Source: an uncultured Acidobacteriaceae bacterium (lineage in GTDB: Bacteria > Acidobacteriota > Terriglobia > Terriglobales > Acidobacteriaceae). Taken from it: a stretch of 64,000 nt of DNA. Of the stretch, positions 50,028-57,661 are shown piece after piece. Below the pieces are notes generated by a model, which did no database searches, was not told the DNA's origin, and saw nothing but the letters and a program-made list of their open reading frames with translations. The stretch covers positions 419,949 to 483,948 of the forward strand of contig CAVYLL010000004.1 in NCBI GenBank assembly GCA_963769345.1, given 5' to 3'. Made by a program: the position numbers and the translations under genes. Numbering within the stretch: the stretch's first letter is position 1; every line of letters begins with the position of its first letter.

Positions 50028-51017
50028 ATGAAGATCTTCCTTACAGGCGCCACCGGATTTGTCGGACATCACGTGGCCAAAGCCCTGGCCGACCAGGGTG
50101 CGGACCTCCGCCTCCTCGTCCGCAAATCCAGCAAGCTGTCCAACCTCGAAGGAATCGCAGGAGATACCGTCGTGGGCGACCTCGCCCGGCCCGACTCCTA
50201 TGCCCCCGCGCTCCAGGGTTGCGATGCCGTCTTGCATGTTGCTGCCGACTACCGCCTCTGGATTCGCGATCCCGATGCGATGTACCGCGCCAACGTCGAC
50301 GGGACTCGAGATTTGTTAAAGCTCGCCCGCGAAGCGCGCGTCCACCGCGTGGTCTACACCTCCAGCGTTGCCACCATGGCCTTCCGCACCGATGGAATCG
50401 TCGTCAACGAAGACACACCCGTGACGATCGACGACATGGTCGGCCACTACAAGCGCTCCAAGTTTCTCGCCGAGCAGCAGGCCATCGCCGCCGCCCAGGA
50501 TGGCCAGCAGGTCATCATCCTCAACCCCACCACTCCAATAGGCCCTAACGACGCCAAGCCCACGCCCACCGGCCGAATCTTCGTCGACTTTCTCAATCGC
50601 AAATTCCCGGCCTACGTCGACACCGGCCTCAACCTCGTCGACGTCGCAGAGGTTGCGCGTACCCACGTCGCCGCACTTGAAGTAGGCAAGCCCGGTCGCC
50701 GTTACATCCTCGGCGGCGAAAACCTCACCCTCAAGCAGATCCTCGACAAGATGTCGGCCATCACCGGCATCCCCTCGCCGAAAACAGAGATTCCTTTTGC
50801 CATCGCCGCCACCTACGCCTTTTTCGAGGAATGGATTACCGGCCGCATCCGAGGCAAAGAACCCCGCGCAACACTAGAAGAAGTCCGGATGGGTCGCAAG
50901 AAGATGTACGCCTCCAGCGCCCGCGCCCAGCAGGAACTCGGCTTCCGCATCGTCCCCGTCTATCCCGCCATGCGCGCCGCCATAGACTGGTTCCGCGCCA
51001 ACGGCTACGCCCCATGA
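50028..51017 (+). CDS. hpnA: Hopanoid-associated sugar epimerase/reductase
   Basis: TGATGFVG, HVAADYRLW, YKRSK, NPTTPIGPNDAKPTPTG; heads the hpn operon. Confidence 0.9.
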   Translation: MKIFLTGATGFVGHHVAKALADQGADLRLLVRKSSKLSNLEGIAGDTVVGDLARPDSYAPALQGCDAVLHVAADYRLWIRDPDAMYRANVDGTRDLLKLAREARVHRVVYTSSVATMAFRTDGIVVNEDTPVTIDDMVGHYKRSKFLAEQQAIAAAQDGQQVIILNPTTPIGPNDAKPTPTGRIFVDFLNRKFPAYVDTGLNLVDVAEVARTHVAALEVGKPGRRYILGGENLTLKQILDKMSAITGIPSPKTEIPFAIAATYAFFEEWITGRIRGKEPRATLEEVRMGRKKMYASSARAQQELGFRIVPVYPAMRAAIDWFRANGYAP

Positions 51018-51691
51018 CCCGAGTCGCCATCATCGCCGCCATGCCCGGCGAACTCAAACCCCTCGTCCGCAACTGGCCGCACTCCACCCGTGGCACCATT
51101 CACTTCTGGGCCCAGCGCACTGAAGAAGAAGAATGGATCGCCGCCTGCGCCGGAGCCGGCCTCGACGCTGCCACGCGTGCCTTCGCGGGAATCGAAGACG
51201 GCGGCCCCATTGACCTCGTCATCTCCATCGGCTGGGCCGGCGCCCTCACCCCCGACATCGCCGCAGGCAGCGCCCACAACTGCGCCGGCGTGATCGACGC
51301 CCGCACCGGCGAGCGATTCAATTGCGATGCCGGCGCCGGCAAGCTGTGGCTGGCAACCAGCCCCAAAGTCGCCGACGAGCCTGAAAAGCTCCGCCTCGCC
51401 TCCACCTATAAAACCGCCCTCGTCGACATGGAAGCCGCCGCTATCGCCCGGCTAGCCGCCATGCGCAGCATCCCCTTCTACGCAATCAAAGGTGTCAGCG
51501 ACCCACTCGACGCTAAACTGCCCGATTTCAACCGCTTTATCGCCCCAGACGGCCAGTTCCAGACCCCGAAGTTTGTTCTTTTTGCTCTCCTTAGACCCTG
51601 GATATGGCCCACACTCGTCAAAATGGGCGAAAATAGTAGAAAGGCTTCCCAAAGCATTGCGGAGCGGCTCCACGAACTTCTGGATGAGTGA
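51014..51691 (+). CDS. Nucleoside phosphorylase family protein, HpnG-like
   Basis: IIAAMPGEL, SIGWAGAL, VDMEAAA, IKGVSD; ATGA overlap with hpnA. The HpnG label rests on context. Confidence 0.75.
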   Translation: MTRVAIIAAMPGELKPLVRNWPHSTRGTIHFWAQRTEEEEWIAACAGAGLDAATRAFAGIEDGGPIDLVISIGWAGALTPDIAAGSAHNCAGVIDARTGERFNCDAGAGKLWLATSPKVADEPEKLRLASTYKTALVDMEAAAIARLAAMRSIPFYAIKGVSDPLDAKLPDFNRFIAPDGQFQTPKFVLFALLRPWIWPTLVKMGENSRKASQSIAERLHELLDE

Positions 51692-51707
51692 GGTCACATC
51701 GACACGG

Positions 51708-52839
51708 ATGGCTACCCAAACCACCAACGCTCAAAGTCATATCGCCACCCGGATTCCCACCACCATGCGCGCCGTAGTCTATCGCGGCATTAACGACATG
51801 CGGGTCGAGACCGTTCCTGTACCCACCATCGGCCCAGGCGAACTCTTGGTCAAGGTCGCCACTTGCGGTATCTGCGGAACCGACCTGAAAAAGATCCACA
51901 CCGGCTCTCACTCCGCCCCCCGTATCTTCGGACACGAAATGTCCGGCACCATCGTCGGTGTCGGCGAGGGAGTAACTCGCTTCCAGGGCGGCGAACGGGT
52001 CGTCGTTCATCACCACGTCCCCTGCGGCGAGTGCTTCTATTGCCGCAAAGGCACCCCCGCCCAATGCCCCCTCTATAAAAAAGTCGGCGTTACGGCCGGC
52101 TTCGAACCGTCCGGCGGCGGCTTCGCGGAGTATATTCGCGTGATGGACTGGGTCGCCTCGAGTTGTGGTGTCGTTCCCATCCCCGACGGCATCCCATTCG
52201 AGCAGGCCGCATTCCTCGAGCCAGTCAACACCGTGCTCAAGGGTGTGAAGATGCTCAACCTCGCCTCCGACGATACGGTTCTCGTAATCGGTCAGGGCCC
52301 CATTGGCCTCATGCACGCCGTGCTCGCCAGCCGTACGGGCGCCCGCGTGCTCACTTCCGATCTCTATCCCGAGCGCCATGCCATCGCCGCCAAATACGGC
52401 CTCAAAGATCCCATCCACGCGGGCAGCGAAAATGTCGTCGAACGCGTCCTTTCAGAGACCGAGGGCCGCGGAGCCGATGCCGTCATCCTCGCCGTGGGCG
52501 GCAACGCCCTCATCCAGACTGCGATGGATGCTGCGCGCTGCGGTGGCAACGTCATGCTTTTTGCCCAGACCCAGCGCGGCGAAGCAACTTTTGATCCCGG
52601 AGTGGTTTGTATGGACGAGAAGACCCTGATGGGGTCCTATTCGTCTTCGTTCGACCTTCTCGACGAAGTCACAGACCTGGTCTTCAAGCGGGTACCGCAA
52701 CGGATTTGACCTGACTCAACTCATCTCGCATCGTTTTCCGCTCGACCAGGCCGTTGCGGCAATCGATGTAGCTTCGCACCCCAAAGCCGACTCGATGAAG
52801 ATTATGATTGAGCCCGTCTCCGGTGCAGGAGCAAAGTAA
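51708..52839 (+). CDS. Zn-dependent medium-chain dehydrogenase 1; frameshift ~52690
   Basis: CGICGTD, FGHEMSG, structural Zn CGECFYC...C, FLEPV, GQGPIG. The C-terminus GFDLTQLISHRFPL...KIMIEP is in a shifted frame and ends at TAA 52837-52839. Confidence 0.88.
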
Positions 52840-54068
52840 TGCCAAACCCGGTAAAACGCGGCCGCCCGACGGTCGAGGACGTCCTCCAGGTCGGCCGAAG
52901 TACCGTCGGAGATGTGCTTCAGATCGGCCGCAATACCGTCGAGGAAGTCCTCCACGTTGGCAGGAGCACCGTTGAGGAGGTCATTCAGGTCGGCCGCAAT
53001 ACCGTCGAGTCCGCTCGCCAGCTCCGCCAGGGAACCATGCAGGCCGCAGTCCTCCACGGCCGCCAGGATATTCGGATTGAAGATGTCCCGGTCCCCCGGG
53101 CAGGCCACGGCGAGCTGATCGTCCGCGTCGGCGCTGCCCTCACGTGCGGAACAGACCTGAAAGTCTTTCGCCGCGGTTACCATGCCCGCATGATCGTCCC
53201 TCCAGCCCTCTTCGGCCACGAGCTGGCAGGAACCGTCGTTGAGGCAGGCGAGGGCGTTGAAGGCTTCGCTAACGGCAGCCGCGTGGTGGCCCTGAATTCC
53301 GCCCCCTGCGGCCAGTGCTACTTCTGCAAGCGCGGGCAGGAAAATCTCTGCGACGACCTGCTCTTCAACAACGGCGCCTATGCCGAATTCATTCGCATCC
53401 CCGCCCGCATCGTCTCCAAGAACACGCTTATTGTTCCCGACCATGTTCCGCTTGAGAACGCCGCACTCACCGAACCCCTCGCTTGCGCCGTCCATGGCTT
53501 TCTTGATTCCAACCCGCATCCTGAGGACACGATCGCAGTAATCGGGGGTGGCCCTTTGGGCCTGATGATGGTCCACGTCGCCGCTCTTTCCGGTTGCAAC
53601 GTCATTTCAATCGTCAAGCACGACGGCCAGGTGATAGCTGCGAAACAGTTGGGGGCAGCTCACGTGATCAAGTCTTCGTCGATTCAGAAAGCCATCCGCG
53701 AAACTCGCGCTCTCACGCCCAATAATCGCGGCGTCGACATCGCCATCGAAGCCGTCGGCGTTCCCGAGGCTTGGGAAGAAGCCGTCGAGATGGTGCGCAA
53801 AGGCGGCACCGTCAACTTCTTCGGCGGATGCGCCGTCGGCACCCATGTCACGCTCGACACCAATCGCATCCACTACAGCGACATCACCCTGCGCGCAACG
53901 TTTCACCATACGCCTGCAATCTGCCGCAAAGCCCTCGACCTCATTGCCAGCGGCCGATTTCAGGCAGGCGCATTCATCACCGGCCACGCTCACCTCTACG
54001 AACTCAATCGCGTCTTTGAGAAGCTGATGAACCGCAGCAGCGAAATCAAAACCGCCATCGTTCCGTGA
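52839..54068 (+). CDS. Zn-dependent medium-chain dehydrogenase 2 with an N-terminal 11-residue repeat extension
   Basis: TCGTD, FGHELAG, CGQCYFC...C, LTEPLAC, GGGPLG; TAATG coupling to the previous gene. Confidence 0.9.
   Translation: MPNPVKRGRPTVEDVLQVGRSTVGDVLQIGRNTVEEVLHVGRSTVEEVIQVGRNTVESARQLRQGTMQAAVLHGRQDIRIEDVPVPRAGHGELIVRVGAALTCGTDLKVFRRGYHARMIVPPALFGHELAGTVVEAGEGVEGFANGSRVVALNSAPCGQCYFCKRGQENLCDDLLFNNGAYAEFIRIPARIVSKNTLIVPDHVPLENAALTEPLACAVHGFLDSNPHPEDTIAVIGGGPLGLMMVHVAALSGCNVISIVKHDGQVIAAKQLGAAHVIKSSSIQKAIRETRALTPNNRGVDIAIEAVGVPEAWEEAVEMVRKGGTVNFFGGCAVGTHVTLDTNRIHYSDITLRATFHHTPAICRKALDLIASGRFQAGAFITGHAHLYELNRVFEKLMNRSSEIKTAIVP
52860..53024 (+). repeat. Five in-frame 33-bp coding repeats
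   Basis: GRPTVEDVLQV / GRSTVGDVLQI / GRNTVEEVLHV / GRSTVEEVIQV / GRNTVESARQL, with many synonymous differences between units. Confidence 0.92.
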
Positions 54069-54128
54069 AGAAGCCGATGCTGACAAGCGCTCAATCTGCC
54101 CATGCCGAATGCCCCAATTTGTATTGGT

Positions 54129-54201
54129 TTTGAAAGGGCACGACTTTAGTCTTGCCGAAAATGCTGCGATGATAGGAAGGAAGGGCTTTAGCCCTGAGGG
54201 A
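54129..54201 (+). repeat. Family-1 two-hairpin element, copy C, directly before hpnC
   Basis: TTTGAAAGGGCACGACTTTAGTCTTGCCG...GGGCTTTAGCCCTGAGGGA. Confidence 0.88.
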
Positions 54202-54204
54202 ACT

Positions 54205-55201
54205 GTGGCGCAATCACAACAAACAGCCGACGCAGAATCAGAACAACAGGCCCTCCTCGCCCTCGCCTGGTCAGCCCTCCCGGCCAGCTATCGCATTCCC
54301 GACAAGGCTCCCACGCTCCAAGAAGCCCGTGCCTGGTGCAAGCACCTCGCCGAAACTCACTACGAAAACTTCCACGTAGCCTCATGGTTCTTGCCTGAAG
54401 CGCTCCGGCCCCACTTCCACGCCATCTACGCCTACTGCCGCGTTTCCGACGATCTCGGCGACGAAGTCGGCGATGCCGCGCAATCTCTGGCCCTTCTCGA
54501 CCTCTGGGGTCACGAACTCGACGCCTGCTATGAAGGCCGCGCGCGTCATCCCGTATTCGTCGCACTCGCTGAAACTATTCGCGCCTGCAATATTCCCAAA
54601 GAGCCATTCGCCGATCTCCTGACCGCATTCCGTCAGGACCAGGCCGTCACGCGCTACGCGAACATGCAAGACGTTCTCGGCTACTGCCGCTACTCCGCGA
54701 ACCCAGTTGGCCGTCTCGTCCTCTACATCTGTGGGTATCGAGACGAAGAGCGCTTCCGCCTCTCTGACGCAACCTGTTCCGCCCTGCAACTCGCCAACTT
54801 CTGGCAGGACGTCCGCGTCGACTTCGTCAAGGACCGCGTCTACATTCCGCAAGACGACATGCAGCGATTCGGCGTCACCGACTGCAATCATCCAGCAGGG
54901 AATTGCGACCCCGGAGTTCCGCGCACTCCTGAAACATGAAGTCGATTTCGCGCGCGGCCTATTTCTTGAGGGCCTGCCGCTCATCAGCATGGTCAACCGC
55001 GATCTCGCCCTCGATCTTGATCTCTTCAGTCGCGGGGGCCTCGAAATCCTCAATGCCATCGAGCGCGAGGATTATGATGTGCTGCGTGCCCGCCCGGCCA
55101 TCTCAAAACGCACCAAGCTGAGCCTGGCACTGCGCGCGGTGAGCGGAAAGTTCCTTCCGTTTCTGCGTCTCGGGGCGGGATCAAAAGGGCAAGCGGCTTG
55201 A
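54205..55201 (+). CDS. hpnC: Squalene synthase HpnC; frameshift ~54890
   Basis: HYENFHVAS, YAYCRVSDDLGDE, YCRYSANPVGRLVL, LQLANFWQDV, DRVYIP, LDLDLFSRGG. Confidence 0.93.
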
Positions 55202-56164: not shown

Positions 56165-56232
56165 TGTGAAAGGGCACGACTTCAGTCGTGCCGAAAAGCG
56201 CCAAATTAGAATTGGGCTTTAGCCCCTGAGGA
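56165..56232 (+). repeat. Family-1 two-hairpin element, copy D, directly before hpnE
   Basis: GTGAAAGGGCACGACTTCAGTCGTGCCG...GGGCTTTAGCCCCTGAGGA. Confidence 0.88.
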
Positions 56233-56237
56233 AATGC

Positions 56238-57661
56238 TTGCCGGAACGATCGCAACAACTCGCACAACGCACCGTCACCGTCATCGGCGGCGGCGTAGCC
56301 GGCATGAGCGCTGCTTGCGCCCTCGCCGAAGCCGGACTACCGCGTGCAACTCGTCGAGCGCCGCGGCTATCTCGGCGGTCGCGCTTCCTCCTATCTGCAT
56401 CCGGGTGTCAACGAAGTCATCGACAACTGCCAGCACGTTCTCTTCGGCTGCTGCACAAATCTCATCGGCTTCTACAATCGCATCGGTGTCGAAAAGAAAA
56501 TTCACTGGACCAGCGAGATGACCATGATCGAGCCCGGCGGCAAGCGCTCGAAACTCGGTCCTTCGCCGCTGCCCGCACCGCTCCATGGTCTCCCGAAACT
56601 TCTTTCCGCCCACGCCTTCACCCGCGCCGACAAGTTCGCCCTCGCGCGCGCCTTTCGCGCCATGATGCGTCCCATCCAGGACGACCAACGAATCGCTCTC
56701 CGCGTGGCTCCGTCGCAATAAGCAGACCCCCGGCGCCATCGAGCGCTTCTGGCGCCTCGTCATCGCCAGCGCCCTCAATGCCGACCTCGACGCCATCGCC
56801 GTTCCGTATGCCGCCAAGGTTATCCGCGAACTCTTCATGAACTCCGCCGAAGCTGGCGCTATGGGCATGAGCTCGGTCCCCCTCAGCGAACTTTACGCGA
56901 TCGGCAAAATCATTCCTCGACGAGACACGGCTCGACCGTCCACCTCAACACCAACGTCGAATCGGCACGAGTGGGACGAGGAGATCTCCCAATGGACCAT
57001 CAGCACGCGCATCGGCACCCTCGTCTCTGAATTCCTCGTCATCGCGTTGCCCTTCGAAGCCACTGCAGAAACTGTTGCCGCATCTCCCGCCTGCCCCGCG
57101 CGGCAGAAGAACTCGCGCGCCAGATCGACCGATTCGAGCACTGGCCCATCTGCAGCGTGCATCTCTGGTTCGATCGCGAAATCACCGATCTCCCGCACGC
57201 CGTCCTTCTCGACCGCGAAATCCACTGGATGTACAACAAGAGCGTTCTGCAGCCATGGCGCAAAACCAAAGGCAGCTACCTCGAACTCGTCCAGTCCGCG
57301 TCGCGCAGCTTCGCAGCCCTCGAACGACGCGAAGCGATCGATCAGGCCCTGAGCGAACTCGCAGAATTCTTTCCCACAATAAGAGAAGCCAAGCTCGAAA
57401 AAGCCGCGCTTATCAAAGAAGTCCGCGCCACCTTCGGCGTCCCACCCGGCATCGACACCCTCAGGCCCCCCTCAGCATCCGCCATGGCCCAACTGCTTCC
57501 TCGCCGGTGACTGGATCTCCACCGGCTGGCCATCGACCATGGAGAGCGCCGCCCGCTCCGGCCATCTCGCTGCCGACGCTCTCTGCGCCAGCAAGATCGA
57601 AGACCGCCGCTTCCTCGAGCCCGACCTGAAGCCCCGGGGGCTTATGCGATGGCTCAAGTAA
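56238..57661 (+). CDS. hpnE: Hydroxysqualene dehydroxylase HpnE; several frameshifts
   Basis: VIGGGVAG, LGGRASS, IDNCQHVLFGCCTN, PICSVHLWFDR, LAGDWISTGWPSTMESAARSG. Confidence 0.9.

What the first reader, a model, noticed from the sequence alone, without database searches (positions are those of the whole stretch)
52860..53024. Five-fold 11-residue repeat fused to the N-terminus of a hopanoid-locus dehydrogenase
Seen: GR(S/N/P)TV(E/G)(E/D)V(L/I)(Q/H)(V/I) repeated about five times before the catalytic domain starts at MQAAVLHG. The 33-bp units differ mostly at synonymous positions (for example GGC CGC, GGC CGA, GGC AGG), which points to selection on the peptide rather than recent slippage. 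Hydrophobic residues fall at positions 5, 8, 9 and 11, with acidic residues on the other face. Known: 11-mer periodicity gives 11/3 amphipathic helices that bind lipid surfaces (alpha-synuclein, perilipins, group 3 LEA proteins). Inference: a membrane-targeting or scaffolding helix that brings a soluble dehydrogenase to a membrane-embedded hopanoid substrate. The paralogue next door lacks it.
Basis: partly seen in the sequence, partly recalled or inferred. Interest (0 to 1): 0.68.

Follow-up and report, generated by a model that had tools for sequence, protein, structure and literature searches.

The report
Repeat-built helical arm on hopanoid-locus dehydrogenase
A zinc dehydrogenase of unknown function in the hopanoid lipid gene cluster of one group of soil acidobacteria has grown a translated, selected N-terminal arm of 11-residue repeats, copied from its own first codons and predicted to form one long two-faced helix, whose role (membrane or partner binding) is untested.

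Summary
Window 52860-53024 holds in-frame 33-bp units at the 5' end of ORF 52839-54068 (409 aa). This is an MDR zinc dehydrogenase, the 'ug2' gene that precedes hpnC in acidobacterial hopanoid clusters.

The extension is translated:
- A conserved ATG with a Shine-Dalgarno-like site occurs in 62 of 74 distinct loci. The internal Met has one in 6 of 74.
- Length changes come only in steps of 11 residues (59, 70 or 81 aa).
- dN/dS is 0.09 in the repeats and 0.06 in the catalytic domain.

The array is young and restricted. It occurs in 87 of 121 genomes of one genus-level clade (records named Terracidiphilus, Occallatibacter, Telmatobacter). It was not found in 141 other genera of the family.

The units most likely arose by tandem duplication of the gene's own first 11 codons. 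They evolve in concert.

AlphaFold2 predicts one continuous helix, residues 12-65, with pLDDT 65-77. The hydrophobic moment peaks at 98-100 degrees.

Membrane targeting is plausible but unproven. The units are weakly hydrophobic and net acidic, and relatives do without them. A coiled-coil or docking role is a serious rival. No known family matches.

The parts
52827..52831 (+). Shine-Dalgarno-like AGGAG, 7 nt before the ATG
   Evidence: Read from the sequence. 62 of 74 distinct orthologous loci have a match of at least 4 nt to the SD core at -17..-4 of this ATG. Only 6 of 74 have one before the internal ATG.
52839..54068 (+). Whole gene: 409-aa MDR zinc dehydrogenase ('ug2' / ADH2) with the N-terminal repeat extension. 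Its ATG overlaps the TAA (52837-52839) of the upstream paralogue's final frame.
   Evidence: ORF list. Pfam ADH_N covers residues 90-194 and ADH_zinc_N covers 239-370. More than 110 full-length orthologues carry the extension.
52839..52868 (+). Leader MPN plus a truncated first unit (PVK-RGRP). Most relatives have the full unit TVKDAIQRGRx; the window lacks 4 residues of it.
   Evidence: Alignments of N-termini.
52869..53000 (+). Four well-formed 33-bp units, read in the T phase: TVEDVLQVGRS, TVGDVLQIGRN, TVEEVLHVGRS, TVEEVIQVGRN.
   Evidence: dN/dS is 0.09 among orthologues.
53001..53033 (+). Degenerate last unit, TVESARQLRQG.
   Evidence: In other lineages this unit is a regular one (TVEDVLQVGRG).
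53034..53066 (+). Native first 11-mer of the enzyme, TMQAAVLHGRQ (strand beta1). It is in phase with the array and is the probable template of the repeat.
   Evidence: It matches the type-B unit consensus TVETAIEHGRA at 5-6 of 11 positions. Among 38,494 background 11-mers, 4e-4 reach 5 matches and none reaches 6. AlphaFold2 places a strand at residues 66-74.
52872..53033 (+). Predicted continuous alpha-helix, residues 12-65.
   Evidence: AlphaFold2 with a 115-sequence alignment gives helix 12-65 at pLDDT 65-77. Whole-model mean pLDDT is 83.9 and pTM is 0.78. The hydrophobic moment is maximal at 98-100 degrees.
53037..54065 (+). Catalytic part, 343 aa. Orthologues without repeats consist of this part plus a 3-5-residue leader.
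   Evidence: The fold matches zinc ADH, threonine dehydrogenase and sorbitol dehydrogenase structures with target-normalised TM about 0.9. None of them covers the N-terminal helix.

Best explanation
The 33-bp repeat encodes a real N-terminal extension of the hopanoid-cluster zinc dehydrogenase 'ug2'.

Origin and evolution:
- It arose in one genus-level acidobacterial clade by serial tandem duplication of the gene's own first 11 codons (T-M-x-A-A-V/I-L-H-G-R-x, strand beta1).
- The copies then diverged to T-V-E-x-h-h-x-x-G-R-x.
- The array now holds 5-7 units counting the leader unit. It keeps an exact 11-residue register, is homogenised within each array, and is under purifying selection.

Structure:
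- It most likely folds as a single helix of about 54 residues with 3.67 residues per turn (a 3-11 helix).
- One straight face is small and hydrophobic (G1, T4, V5, V8, L9, V11), flanked by the conserved R2 and E6. The opposite face is variable and polar.
- The helix runs without a linker into the first strand of the catalytic domain.

Proposed working: a low-affinity, multivalent surface-binding arm that keeps the otherwise soluble enzyme at the cytoplasmic face of the membrane, where hopanoid or squalene-pathway substrates lie.

Status of each step. Shown here: translation, selection, periodicity, clade restriction and origin. Predicted: the helix. Inferred only: membrane binding.

My odds: translated 0.95; amphipathic helix 0.75; membrane as the surface it binds about 0.4.
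For: Translation:
- A conserved ATG with an SD-like site is present in 62 of 74 loci. The internal Met has one in 6 of 74.
- Extension lengths are 59, 66, 69, 70 or 81 aa; the three main classes (59, 70, 81) differ by whole units.
- For pairs with dS 0.5-1.0, dN/dS is 0.092 in the repeats and 0.061 in the catalytic part, with equal dS of about 0.9.

Peptide-level selection and concerted evolution:
- Array L105 has 104 synonymous against 48 non-synonymous codon differences between its units.
- Units within an array are 72% identical. Units at the same ordinal position in arrays of different flavours are 48% identical.

Distribution:
- More than 110 orthologous proteins and 80 genome loci carry the extension, all in the order hpnA-hpnG-ADH1-ADH2-hpnC-hpnD.
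- 87 of 121 genomes of the genus have it.
- None was seen in 141 other genera, whose orthologues match only from about residue 60 onward; the N-termini were read in 28 of those loci.
- Apart from seven repeat-less orthologues from the same genus that fall inside it, repeat-bearers form one clade; MRCA support is 0.72.

Origin: the native 11-mer matches the unit consensus at 5-6 of 11 positions, in phase and adjacent to the array. The background frequency is at most 4e-4.

Helix:
- AlphaFold2 predicts helix 12-65 at pLDDT 65-77.
- The hydrophobic moment is 0.336 at 98 degrees, reached by 2 of 10,000 shuffles.
- In 18-residue windows the mean moment is 0.36-0.39 and mean hydrophobicity is 0.19-0.25.
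- The only weak database echoes are helical 11-mer proteins: Synuclein, Perilipin, Apolipoprotein and designed helical bundles.

Context: the gene lies in a lipid-pathway cluster. The published 'ug2' has unknown function (PMC5462960).
Against: - Every unit has net charge -1 and no aromatic or large hydrophobic residue apart from Leu and Ile. Only the leader unit is basic.
- In perilipin 4, a 66-residue 11-mer helix was cytosolic, and a net negative charge abolished lipid-droplet binding (PMC5889406).
- The extension is dispensable. Nine of ten high-quality repeat-less genomes of the same genus that I checked keep a repeat-less orthologue at 81-87% identity, as do all other genera.
- Identity-level conservation of G1, R2, T4, V5 and E6 fits a specific protein contact, or recent common origin, at least as well as lipid binding.
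- AlphaFold2 confidence for the helix is moderate. The first run, with a shallow alignment, gave pLDDT 31-41.
- There is no experimental datum on localisation, oligomeric state or substrate.
Confidence: 0.4

Rival explanations
1. The helix is a hendecad (11-residue) coiled-coil or docking element. Its hydrophobic stripe pairs with like helices of other subunits or other oligomers, or with a partner protein such as the co-translated paralogue ADH1 ('ug1'). This would build a higher-order enzyme assembly rather than bind lipid.
For: - Hydrophobic residues fall at a, d and e of a hendecad (V5, V8, L9), with a small residue at h (G1). The R2-E6 pair at i/i+4 is conserved.
- The conserved positions lie on one contiguous arc, and their identity is conserved, not only their chemistry.
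- The best PDB profile matches are designed helical repeat and bundle proteins. V-SNARE_C is a sub-threshold hit in 10 of 15 members.
- Net acidic units are no obstacle to protein-protein contacts.
- The genes for ADH1 and ADH2 are translationally coupled (TAATG).
Against: - Glycine in every core 'h' position, and many beta-branched Val and Thr residues, are poor coiled-coil formers.
- From general knowledge of MDR dehydrogenase oligomers (not tested here), the N-termini point away from the subunit interfaces.
- No partner was identified. A flavour-matched change in ADH1 was not tested.
- No oligomer modelling tool was available.
Confidence: 0.27
2. The array is a tolerated by-product of replication slippage at the 5' end. 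It would be a largely disordered tail with no specific function, kept only because it does no harm or gives a generic benefit such as solubility or expression.
For: - It is absent from about a quarter of genomes of the same genus and from all other genera.
- Copy number varies.
- Repeat-less orthologues appear nested among repeat-bearers in the catalytic-domain tree, which suggests easy loss (support values 0.7-0.8).
- The first AlphaFold2 run gave very low confidence.
Against: - dN/dS of 0.09 is as low as in the enzyme itself.
- The exact 11-residue phase is retained in all 80 loci.
- The amphipathic pattern is preserved across three diverged sequence flavours.
- Units with nearly identical peptides differ at synonymous sites.
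Confidence: 0.12
3. The units keep the strand character of their template (beta1). They would form beta structure, for example strand mimicry or domain swapping with the GroES-like domain, or a beta-hairpin stack with G-R-x-T turns.
For: - The units derive from a beta-strand segment.
- They are rich in Val, Thr and Ile, with Gly and Asn at turn-like positions.
- An alternating pattern V5-x-L9-x-V11 exists.
Against: - The hydrophobic moment at 160-180 degrees is 0.03-0.16, against 0.34 at 98 degrees.
- Position 7 on the would-be buried face is Asp or Glu in the window's flavour.
- Both AlphaFold2 runs give a helix.
Confidence: 0.05
4. The repeat is not translated. The protein starts at the downstream Met (MQAAVL), and the repeat is a 5' leader or DNA-level element.
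For: - A few gene callers predicted 343-aa products (P0104, P0108, P0116).
- In the window an AGGGA lies 3 nt upstream of the internal ATG.
Against: - Purifying selection acts in this frame, with dS equal to that of the enzyme.
- Insertions and deletions come only in multiples of 33 bp.
- The upstream ATG and SD-like site are conserved, and an SD-like site before the internal ATG is absent in 68 of 74 loci.
- The DNA units are only 58-79% identical while the peptide pattern is kept.
Confidence: 0.03

Closest known systems
'ug2', the Zn-binding alcohol dehydrogenase gene of unknown function that precedes hpnC-hpnD-hpnE in acidobacterial hopanoid clusters (Sinninghe Damste et al. 2017, PMC5462960)
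   Same: - Same gene position: hpnA-hpnG-ug1-ug2-hpnC-hpnD.
- Same MDR zinc-dehydrogenase fold and ligands.
- Orthologues are found in 146 of 151 genomes of the family.
   Different: The published description is of a protein of about 350 aa. The N-terminal repeat extension of 59-81 residues in the Terracidiphilus/Occallatibacter/Telmatobacter clade is not mentioned there.
11-mer repeat amphipathic '3-11' helices that bind lipid surfaces: perilipins (notably Plin4), apolipoproteins and alpha-synuclein (PMC5889406)
   Same: - Strict 11-residue periodicity without insertions or deletions.
- Val/Thr/Gly-rich, weakly hydrophobic non-polar face.
- Predicted long continuous helix.
- Sub-threshold profile echoes to Synuclein, Perilipin and Apolipoprotein.
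   Different: - No homology: all matches are below the Pfam gathering scores.
- Units are net acidic instead of basic.
- Only about 55-66 residues long.
- Bacterial and fused to an enzyme.
- Lipid binding is untested.
Domain M of CTP:phosphocholine cytidylyltransferase, an enzyme-attached amphipathic helix with 11-mer repeats that senses membrane lipid composition (named in PMC5889406; the mechanism is from my own knowledge)
   Same: An 11-mer amphipathic helix covalently attached to a lipid-pathway enzyme. It offers a model for reversible membrane recruitment or activation.
   Different: - CCT's helix is C-terminal to the catalytic domain, is basic, and is autoinhibitory.
- Here the helix is N-terminal, acidic, joined without a linker to strand beta1, and unrelated in sequence.
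Hendecad (11-residue) coiled coils
   Same: 11-residue period with hydrophobic a/d/e positions, and a straight hydrophobic seam.
   Different: Glycine sits at the fourth core position and beta-branched residues dominate. No evidence of oligomerisation through this segment.
Polyol-type MDR dehydrogenases with solved structures (for example 4ejm, threonine dehydrogenase 2dfv, sorbitol dehydrogenase 1e3j)
   Same: The catalytic part superposes with target-normalised TM about 0.9 and 24-32% identity.
   Different: All are 333-366 residues and none has an N-terminal helical extension. NCBIfam equivalog scores are far below their cut-offs, so the substrate is unknown.

Membership tests
MDR zinc-dependent alcohol/polyol dehydrogenase superfamily | GroES-like ADH_N domain plus Rossmann ADH_zinc_N domain above the Pfam thresholds | tested here: met
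   PF08240 scores 86.4 bits against a cut-off of 23.5. PF00107 scores 81 bits against a cut-off of 31.8. Foldseek gives target-normalised TM about 0.9 to many family members.
MDR zinc-dependent alcohol/polyol dehydrogenase superfamily | Catalytic Zn ligands (Cys, and His-Glu of the GHE motif), structural Zn Cx2Cx2Cx7C, and a GxGxxG nucleotide loop | tested here: met
   C103, H127, E128, C157, C160, C163 and C171 are invariant across 115 ADH2 and ADH1 sequences. G236, G238 and G241 are conserved.
'ug2' orthologous group of acidobacterial hopanoid clusters | Zn-ADH gene directly upstream of hpnC-hpnD(-hpnE) | tested here: met
   HpnC starts at 54109 and HpnD at 55198, downstream of the gene. HpnA and an HpnG-like gene lie upstream. 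The same order is seen in nearly all 80 related loci. Definition taken from PMC5462960.
L-threonine 3-dehydrogenase (TIGR00692 / NF003808) | Score above the equivalog cut-off | tested here: not met
   174.9 bits against a cut-off of 458, and 164.8 bits against a cut-off of 380.
Synuclein (PF01387) | Profile match above the gathering score | tested here: not met
   16.7 bits against 23.3 for the window. 11 of 15 diverse N-termini match only below threshold, with a best E-value of 5.4e-4. PDB alpha-synuclein chains give E-values of 0.3-4.
Perilipin / apolipoprotein 11-mer amphipathic repeat proteins | Profile match (PF03036, PF01442) | tested here: not met
   Perilipin matches 1 of 15 members (E 0.005) and Apolipoprotein matches 2 of 15 (E 0.07). 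All are below threshold.
Perilipin / apolipoprotein 11-mer amphipathic repeat proteins | 11-residue periodic amphipathic helix (3-11 geometry) | tested here: met
   The hydrophobic moment is maximal at 98-100 degrees and 2 of 10,000 shuffles reach it. Length classes are 59, 70 and 81 aa. A continuous helix is predicted.
Perilipin / apolipoprotein 11-mer amphipathic repeat proteins | Lipid-induced folding and binding to lipid surfaces | not testable with these tools
   Needs CD and liposome or droplet binding assays.
Hendecad coiled coil | Hydrophobic a, d, e, h positions and oligomerisation through the segment | tested here: inconclusive
   Positions a, d and e are hydrophobic (V5, V8, L9), but h is Gly. 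Oligomerisation could not be modelled.
Bacterial microcompartment encapsulation peptide | Shell protein genes (PF00936) in the genome | tested here: not met
   No BMC-domain match in the window's own genome. The controls gave matches in E. coli and Synechococcus.

The most novel reading that the evidence does not exclude
The array is a newly evolved lipid-surface sensor. Copies of the enzyme's own beta1 codons were turned into a 3-11 amphipathic helix that reversibly recruits, and perhaps CCT-like switches on, the ug2 dehydrogenase at hopanoid-containing membrane. That would mark ug2 as an interfacial enzyme acting on a membrane-embedded hopanoid intermediate, for example the still unassigned ribosylhopane-to-bacteriohopanetetrol step. 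It would also give a dated natural example of a strand-to-helix change of function by 5' self-duplication.
Probability: 0.15. Interest if true: 0.75.

Novelty: new variant of a known kind. Interest (0 to 1): 0.45.

Why it matters
**Clue to ug2's role.** ug2 and its partner ug1 are conserved but unassigned genes of the acidobacterial hopanoid cluster, and the enzyme that turns ribosylhopane into bacteriohopanetetrol is still unknown (PMC5462960). An extension that tethers ug2 to a membrane would argue for a lipid-embedded substrate. It would also give a simple handle for experiments, comparing the enzyme with and without the arm. Cultured strains are available: Occallatibacter savannae AB23 and Telmatobacter sp. 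DSM 110680.

**A well-resolved case of new protein sequence.** Independently of function, the origin of the new segment can be traced:
- The template 11-mer is still present next to the array.
- The array is restricted to one genus-level clade, with presence/absence and copy-number variation.
- It shows concerted evolution together with strong purifying selection.
- The predicted conformation has changed from strand to helix.

Tried and rejected
- **HMM of the repeat alone.** I searched 1.84 billion representative proteins and found 170 hits. The strong ones are fragments of the same dehydrogenase. The rest are unrelated 11-mer tandem-repeat proteins from many organisms: an RTX protein, Plasmodium-like low-complexity proteins, and a secreted protein with 14 x GKWTVEKAIAA. 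So there is no wider domain family.
- **Family and structure libraries.** Pfam, NCBIfam and PDB sequence searches of the extension gave only sub-threshold, compositional matches. These included helix-hairpin-helix families (Cdd1, RNA_pol_A_CTD, DNA_pol_lambd_f). I do not read these as DNA binding.
- **First AlphaFold2 run.** It used 43 near-identical sequences and gave a poor model (mean pLDDT 62.7). Adding the paralogues fixed the catalytic domain and raised confidence in the helix.
- **Microcompartment targeting peptide.** Rejected, because the genome has no shell genes.
- **Signal peptide or Tat motif.** Rejected by reading the sequence. There is no hydrophobic core.
- **A second copy of the repeat in the genome.** Only a weak match was found, to a DUF883/ElaB-like 109-aa protein.
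- A tree run with treekit returned no answer; I repeated it with FastTree. I therefore could not look at reads for copy-number heterogeneity, transcription, or the neighbouring frameshift.
- That number is indicative only and nothing in the verdict rests on it.
Full report
**What is in the sequence**

- Window 52839-54068 (+) is an intact 409-codon ORF.
- Residues 67-409 are a medium-chain zinc dehydrogenase. Pfam ADH_N covers 90-194 and ADH_zinc_N covers 239-370.
- The best NCBIfam matches are polyol-type enzymes, threonine 3-dehydrogenase and scyllo-inosose 3-dehydrogenase. All are far below their cut-offs.
- The first 66 residues are MPNPVK followed by GRPTVEDVLQV, GRSTVGDVLQI, GRNTVEEVLHV, GRSTVEEVIQV and GRNTVESARQL, then RQGT, and then MQAAVLHG.
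- Tandem Repeats Finder reports the array at 52872-53009, with period 33, 4.2 copies and 70% matches.
One correction applies: units 1-4 differ by 21 synonymous and 21 amino-acid-changing codons. That is not 'mostly synonymous', although it is enriched for synonymous change given how few synonymous sites there are.

**Gene context**

- The order on the + strand is HpnA (50028-51017), an HpnG-like phosphorylase (50831-51691), a paralogous dehydrogenase ADH1 (51492-52709 and on), this gene, HpnC (54109...), HpnD (55198...) and hpnE pieces. HpnJ is on the other strand.
- Sinninghe Damste et al. 2017 described exactly this layout. Their cluster C is hpnA-hpnG-ug1 and cluster A is ug2-hpnC-hpnD-hpnE. 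They describe ug2 as a Zn-binding alcohol dehydrogenase of about 350 residues with unknown function, and note that the enzyme converting ribosylhopane to bacteriohopanetetrol is unknown (PMC5462960).
- Our gene is ug2. The repeat is not mentioned there.

**Is the repeat translated?**

- An AGGAG lies 7 nt before the ATG at 52839, and the ATG overlaps the stop of the upstream paralogue.
- Across 74 distinct related loci, 62 have a Shine-Dalgarno-like match before this ATG. Only 6 have one before the internal Met.
- The extension is 59, 66, 69, 70 or 81 residues long in 80 genome loci. The three main classes (59, 70, 81) differ by whole 11-residue units.
- For orthologue pairs with catalytic dS of 0.5-1.0, dN/dS is 0.092 in the repeat region and 0.061 in the catalytic part, with the same dS of about 0.9.
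- In arrays whose units are almost the same peptide, the units differ mainly at synonymous sites. L105 has 104 synonymous against 48 non-synonymous differences.
- I put translation at about 0.95.

**Distribution**

- More than 110 database proteins carry the extension, and all of them are this dehydrogenase.
- Eighty loci from species-representative genomes carry it, always in the same gene order. Their records are named Terracidiphilus sp., Occallatibacter savannae AB23 or uncultured Acidobacteriaceae. One protein is from Telmatobacter sp. DSM 110680.
- In a sample of 151 genomes from 142 genera of the family, 146 have an orthologue. Outside the window's own genome the alignments begin only at about residue 60.
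- The 28 N-termini I read there start with three to five residues and then M-x-AAVL(H/Y)G.
- Within the genus, 87 of 121 genomes have the array, including 51 of 67 high-quality genomes.
- Nine of ten high-quality genomes without it keep a repeat-less orthologue at 81-87% identity that begins MATTMKAAILHG or MASTMQAAVLHG.
- In a catalytic-domain tree the repeat-bearers form one group on a long branch. Two repeat-less sequences are sister to it, and seven repeat-less sequences fall inside it, with support of only 0.7-0.8.
- The simplest reading is one gain followed by several complete losses. This needs a better tree.

**Origin**

- Read in the phase that starts with Thr, the units are T-V-E-x-h-h-x-x-G-R-x.
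- The array runs in phase into the enzyme's own first 11-mer, T-M-Q/K-A-A-V/I-L-H-G-R-E/Q.
- That native 11-mer, taken from repeat-less relatives, matches the consensus of the commonest unit flavour (TVETAIEHGRA) at 5-6 of 11 positions.
- Among 38,494 background 11-mers from long ORFs of the window, 4e-4 reach five matches and none reaches six.
- The leader unit TVKDAIKRGR is similarly close to the native 11-mer.
- I conclude that the array arose by serial tandem duplication of the gene's own 5' coding end. I reached this before seeing an earlier first-reader note on another genome that says the same. That note is not independent evidence.
- Three flavours now exist: GRNTVEDVLQV (as in the window), GRATVETAIEH, and GRKTVETVVEE alternating with GLNTVETVVEA.
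- Units within one array are more alike (72%) than units at the same ordinal position in arrays of different flavours (48%). The flavours are also mixed in the catalytic-domain tree. The arrays therefore evolve in concert.

**Structure**

- On a wheel with 3.67 residues per turn, G1, V5, L9, V8, T4 and V11 form one face. R2, E6, Q10, S3 and E7 form the other.
- The hydrophobic moment over residues 8-62 is 0.336 at 98 degrees. Shuffles give 0.107 +/- 0.055, and 2 of 10,000 reach the observed value. At strand-like angles the moment is 0.03-0.16.
- The positions conserved across flavours (G1, R2, T4, V5, E6, hydrophobic 8 and 9) lie on one contiguous arc.
- AlphaFold2 with a shallow alignment was uninformative.
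- With 115 sequences, including the paralogues, the model reached mean pLDDT 83.9. It shows one uninterrupted helix, residues 12-65, at pLDDT 65-77, joined directly to strand beta1 at 66-74.
- Solved relatives match only the catalytic part. None has such a helix.

**Is it a known family?**

- No. The profile of the extension finds only the same dehydrogenase at high scores among 1.84 billion representative proteins. The remaining hits are assorted 11-mer repeat proteins.
- Pfam gives only sub-threshold matches: Synuclein in 11 of 15 members, DM9, V-SNARE_C, Dermcidin, a few helix-hairpin-helix families, Perilipin once and Apolipoprotein twice.
- These matches show shared periodicity and composition, not membership.

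**How it probably works**

- The shown facts are a selected, phase-locked, amphipathic, probably helical arm fused rigidly to the enzyme.
- What the hydrophobic stripe touches is inferred, not shown.
- In favour of the membrane:
  - The 3-11 geometry gives a straight stripe suited to a flat surface.
  - The Val/Thr/Gly-rich, weakly hydrophobic face is typical of helices that fold only on lipid, as in perilipins and alpha-synuclein (PMC5889406).
  - The gene sits in a lipid pathway.
- Against the membrane:
  - Each unit is net -1 and the array is short.
  - In Plin4 a 66-residue piece stayed cytosolic, and a switch to net negative charge abolished targeting.
  - Congeners and all other genera manage without the arm.
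- A hendecad coiled-coil or docking role fits the a/d/e pattern, the conserved R2-E6 pair and the identity-level conservation. It is weakened by Gly in the core and by the many beta-branched residues.
- My odds for the role: membrane about 0.4, protein-protein contact about 0.27, no specific function about 0.12, beta structure about 0.05, not translated about 0.03. The remainder is left open.
- A microcompartment targeting role is excluded, because the genome has no shell genes.

**Verdict**

This is a real, translated, lineage-specific structural add-on to a published but unassigned hopanoid-cluster enzyme. Its origin is clear and its function is open. It is a new variant of known kinds (11-mer amphipathic repeats; MDR dehydrogenases). 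I rate it as moderately interesting.

Noticed in passing
window 52680-52700 (ADH1 / 'ug1', ORF 51492-52709): The upstream paralogue is frame-shifted. The window has one extra base near 52688 (ttcaaGcgggtacc) compared with close relatives L034 and L035. The C-terminal ~50 codons continue in another frame to the TAA at 52837-52839. This is either a pseudogene or, more likely, an assembly indel.
   Followed up: partly
window 54109-55198 (hpnC) and 56210-57660 (hpnE): hpnC and hpnE are also split over several frames. The hpnC pieces are 54109-54939 and 54623-55198; hpnE has four or more pieces. Several related long-read MAG loci likewise show truncated copies of the dehydrogenase (L039, 366 aa; L048, 176 aa). 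This points to homopolymer indel errors rather than real decay of the cluster.
   Followed up: partly
window 50831-51691: The HpnG-like phosphorylase scores only 86.5 bits against the TIGR03468 cut-off of 187. Its listed ORF overlaps the end of hpnA by about 190 nt, so the true start is probably further downstream.
   Followed up: no
L002 1414-1743 (-), own genome contig C5:174296-174454: A 109-aa protein with a C-terminal membrane anchor looks like the DUF883/ElaB family by eye. It gives a weak match to the repeat profile (E 3.7e-4). Similar weak second hits appear in at least three other genomes of the genus. This is probably compositional.
   Followed up: partly
P0132 (505 aa, representative library, organism unknown): A protein with a signal-peptide-like N-terminus carries about 14 tandem 11-mers, GKWTVEKAIAA. 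These share G-(K/R)-x-T-V-E-x-A-I with the type-B units of the dehydrogenase (E 5e-33). It has no Pfam domain. Homology versus convergence was not resolved.
   Followed up: partly
genome G062 (same genus, 3.4 Mb, 100% complete): No ug2 orthologue at all at E <= 1e-60 or 1e-80, unlike 146 of 151 family genomes.
   Followed up: no
L033-L112, junction between ADH1 and ADH2: Two junction types exist. In one, the ADH1 stop overlaps the ADH2 start (TAATG), as in the window. In the other, a TAG or TGA stop is followed by a G-rich SD-like site and about 5-8 nt before the ATG. In a third group of loci a longer spacer lies between the two genes.
   Followed up: partly
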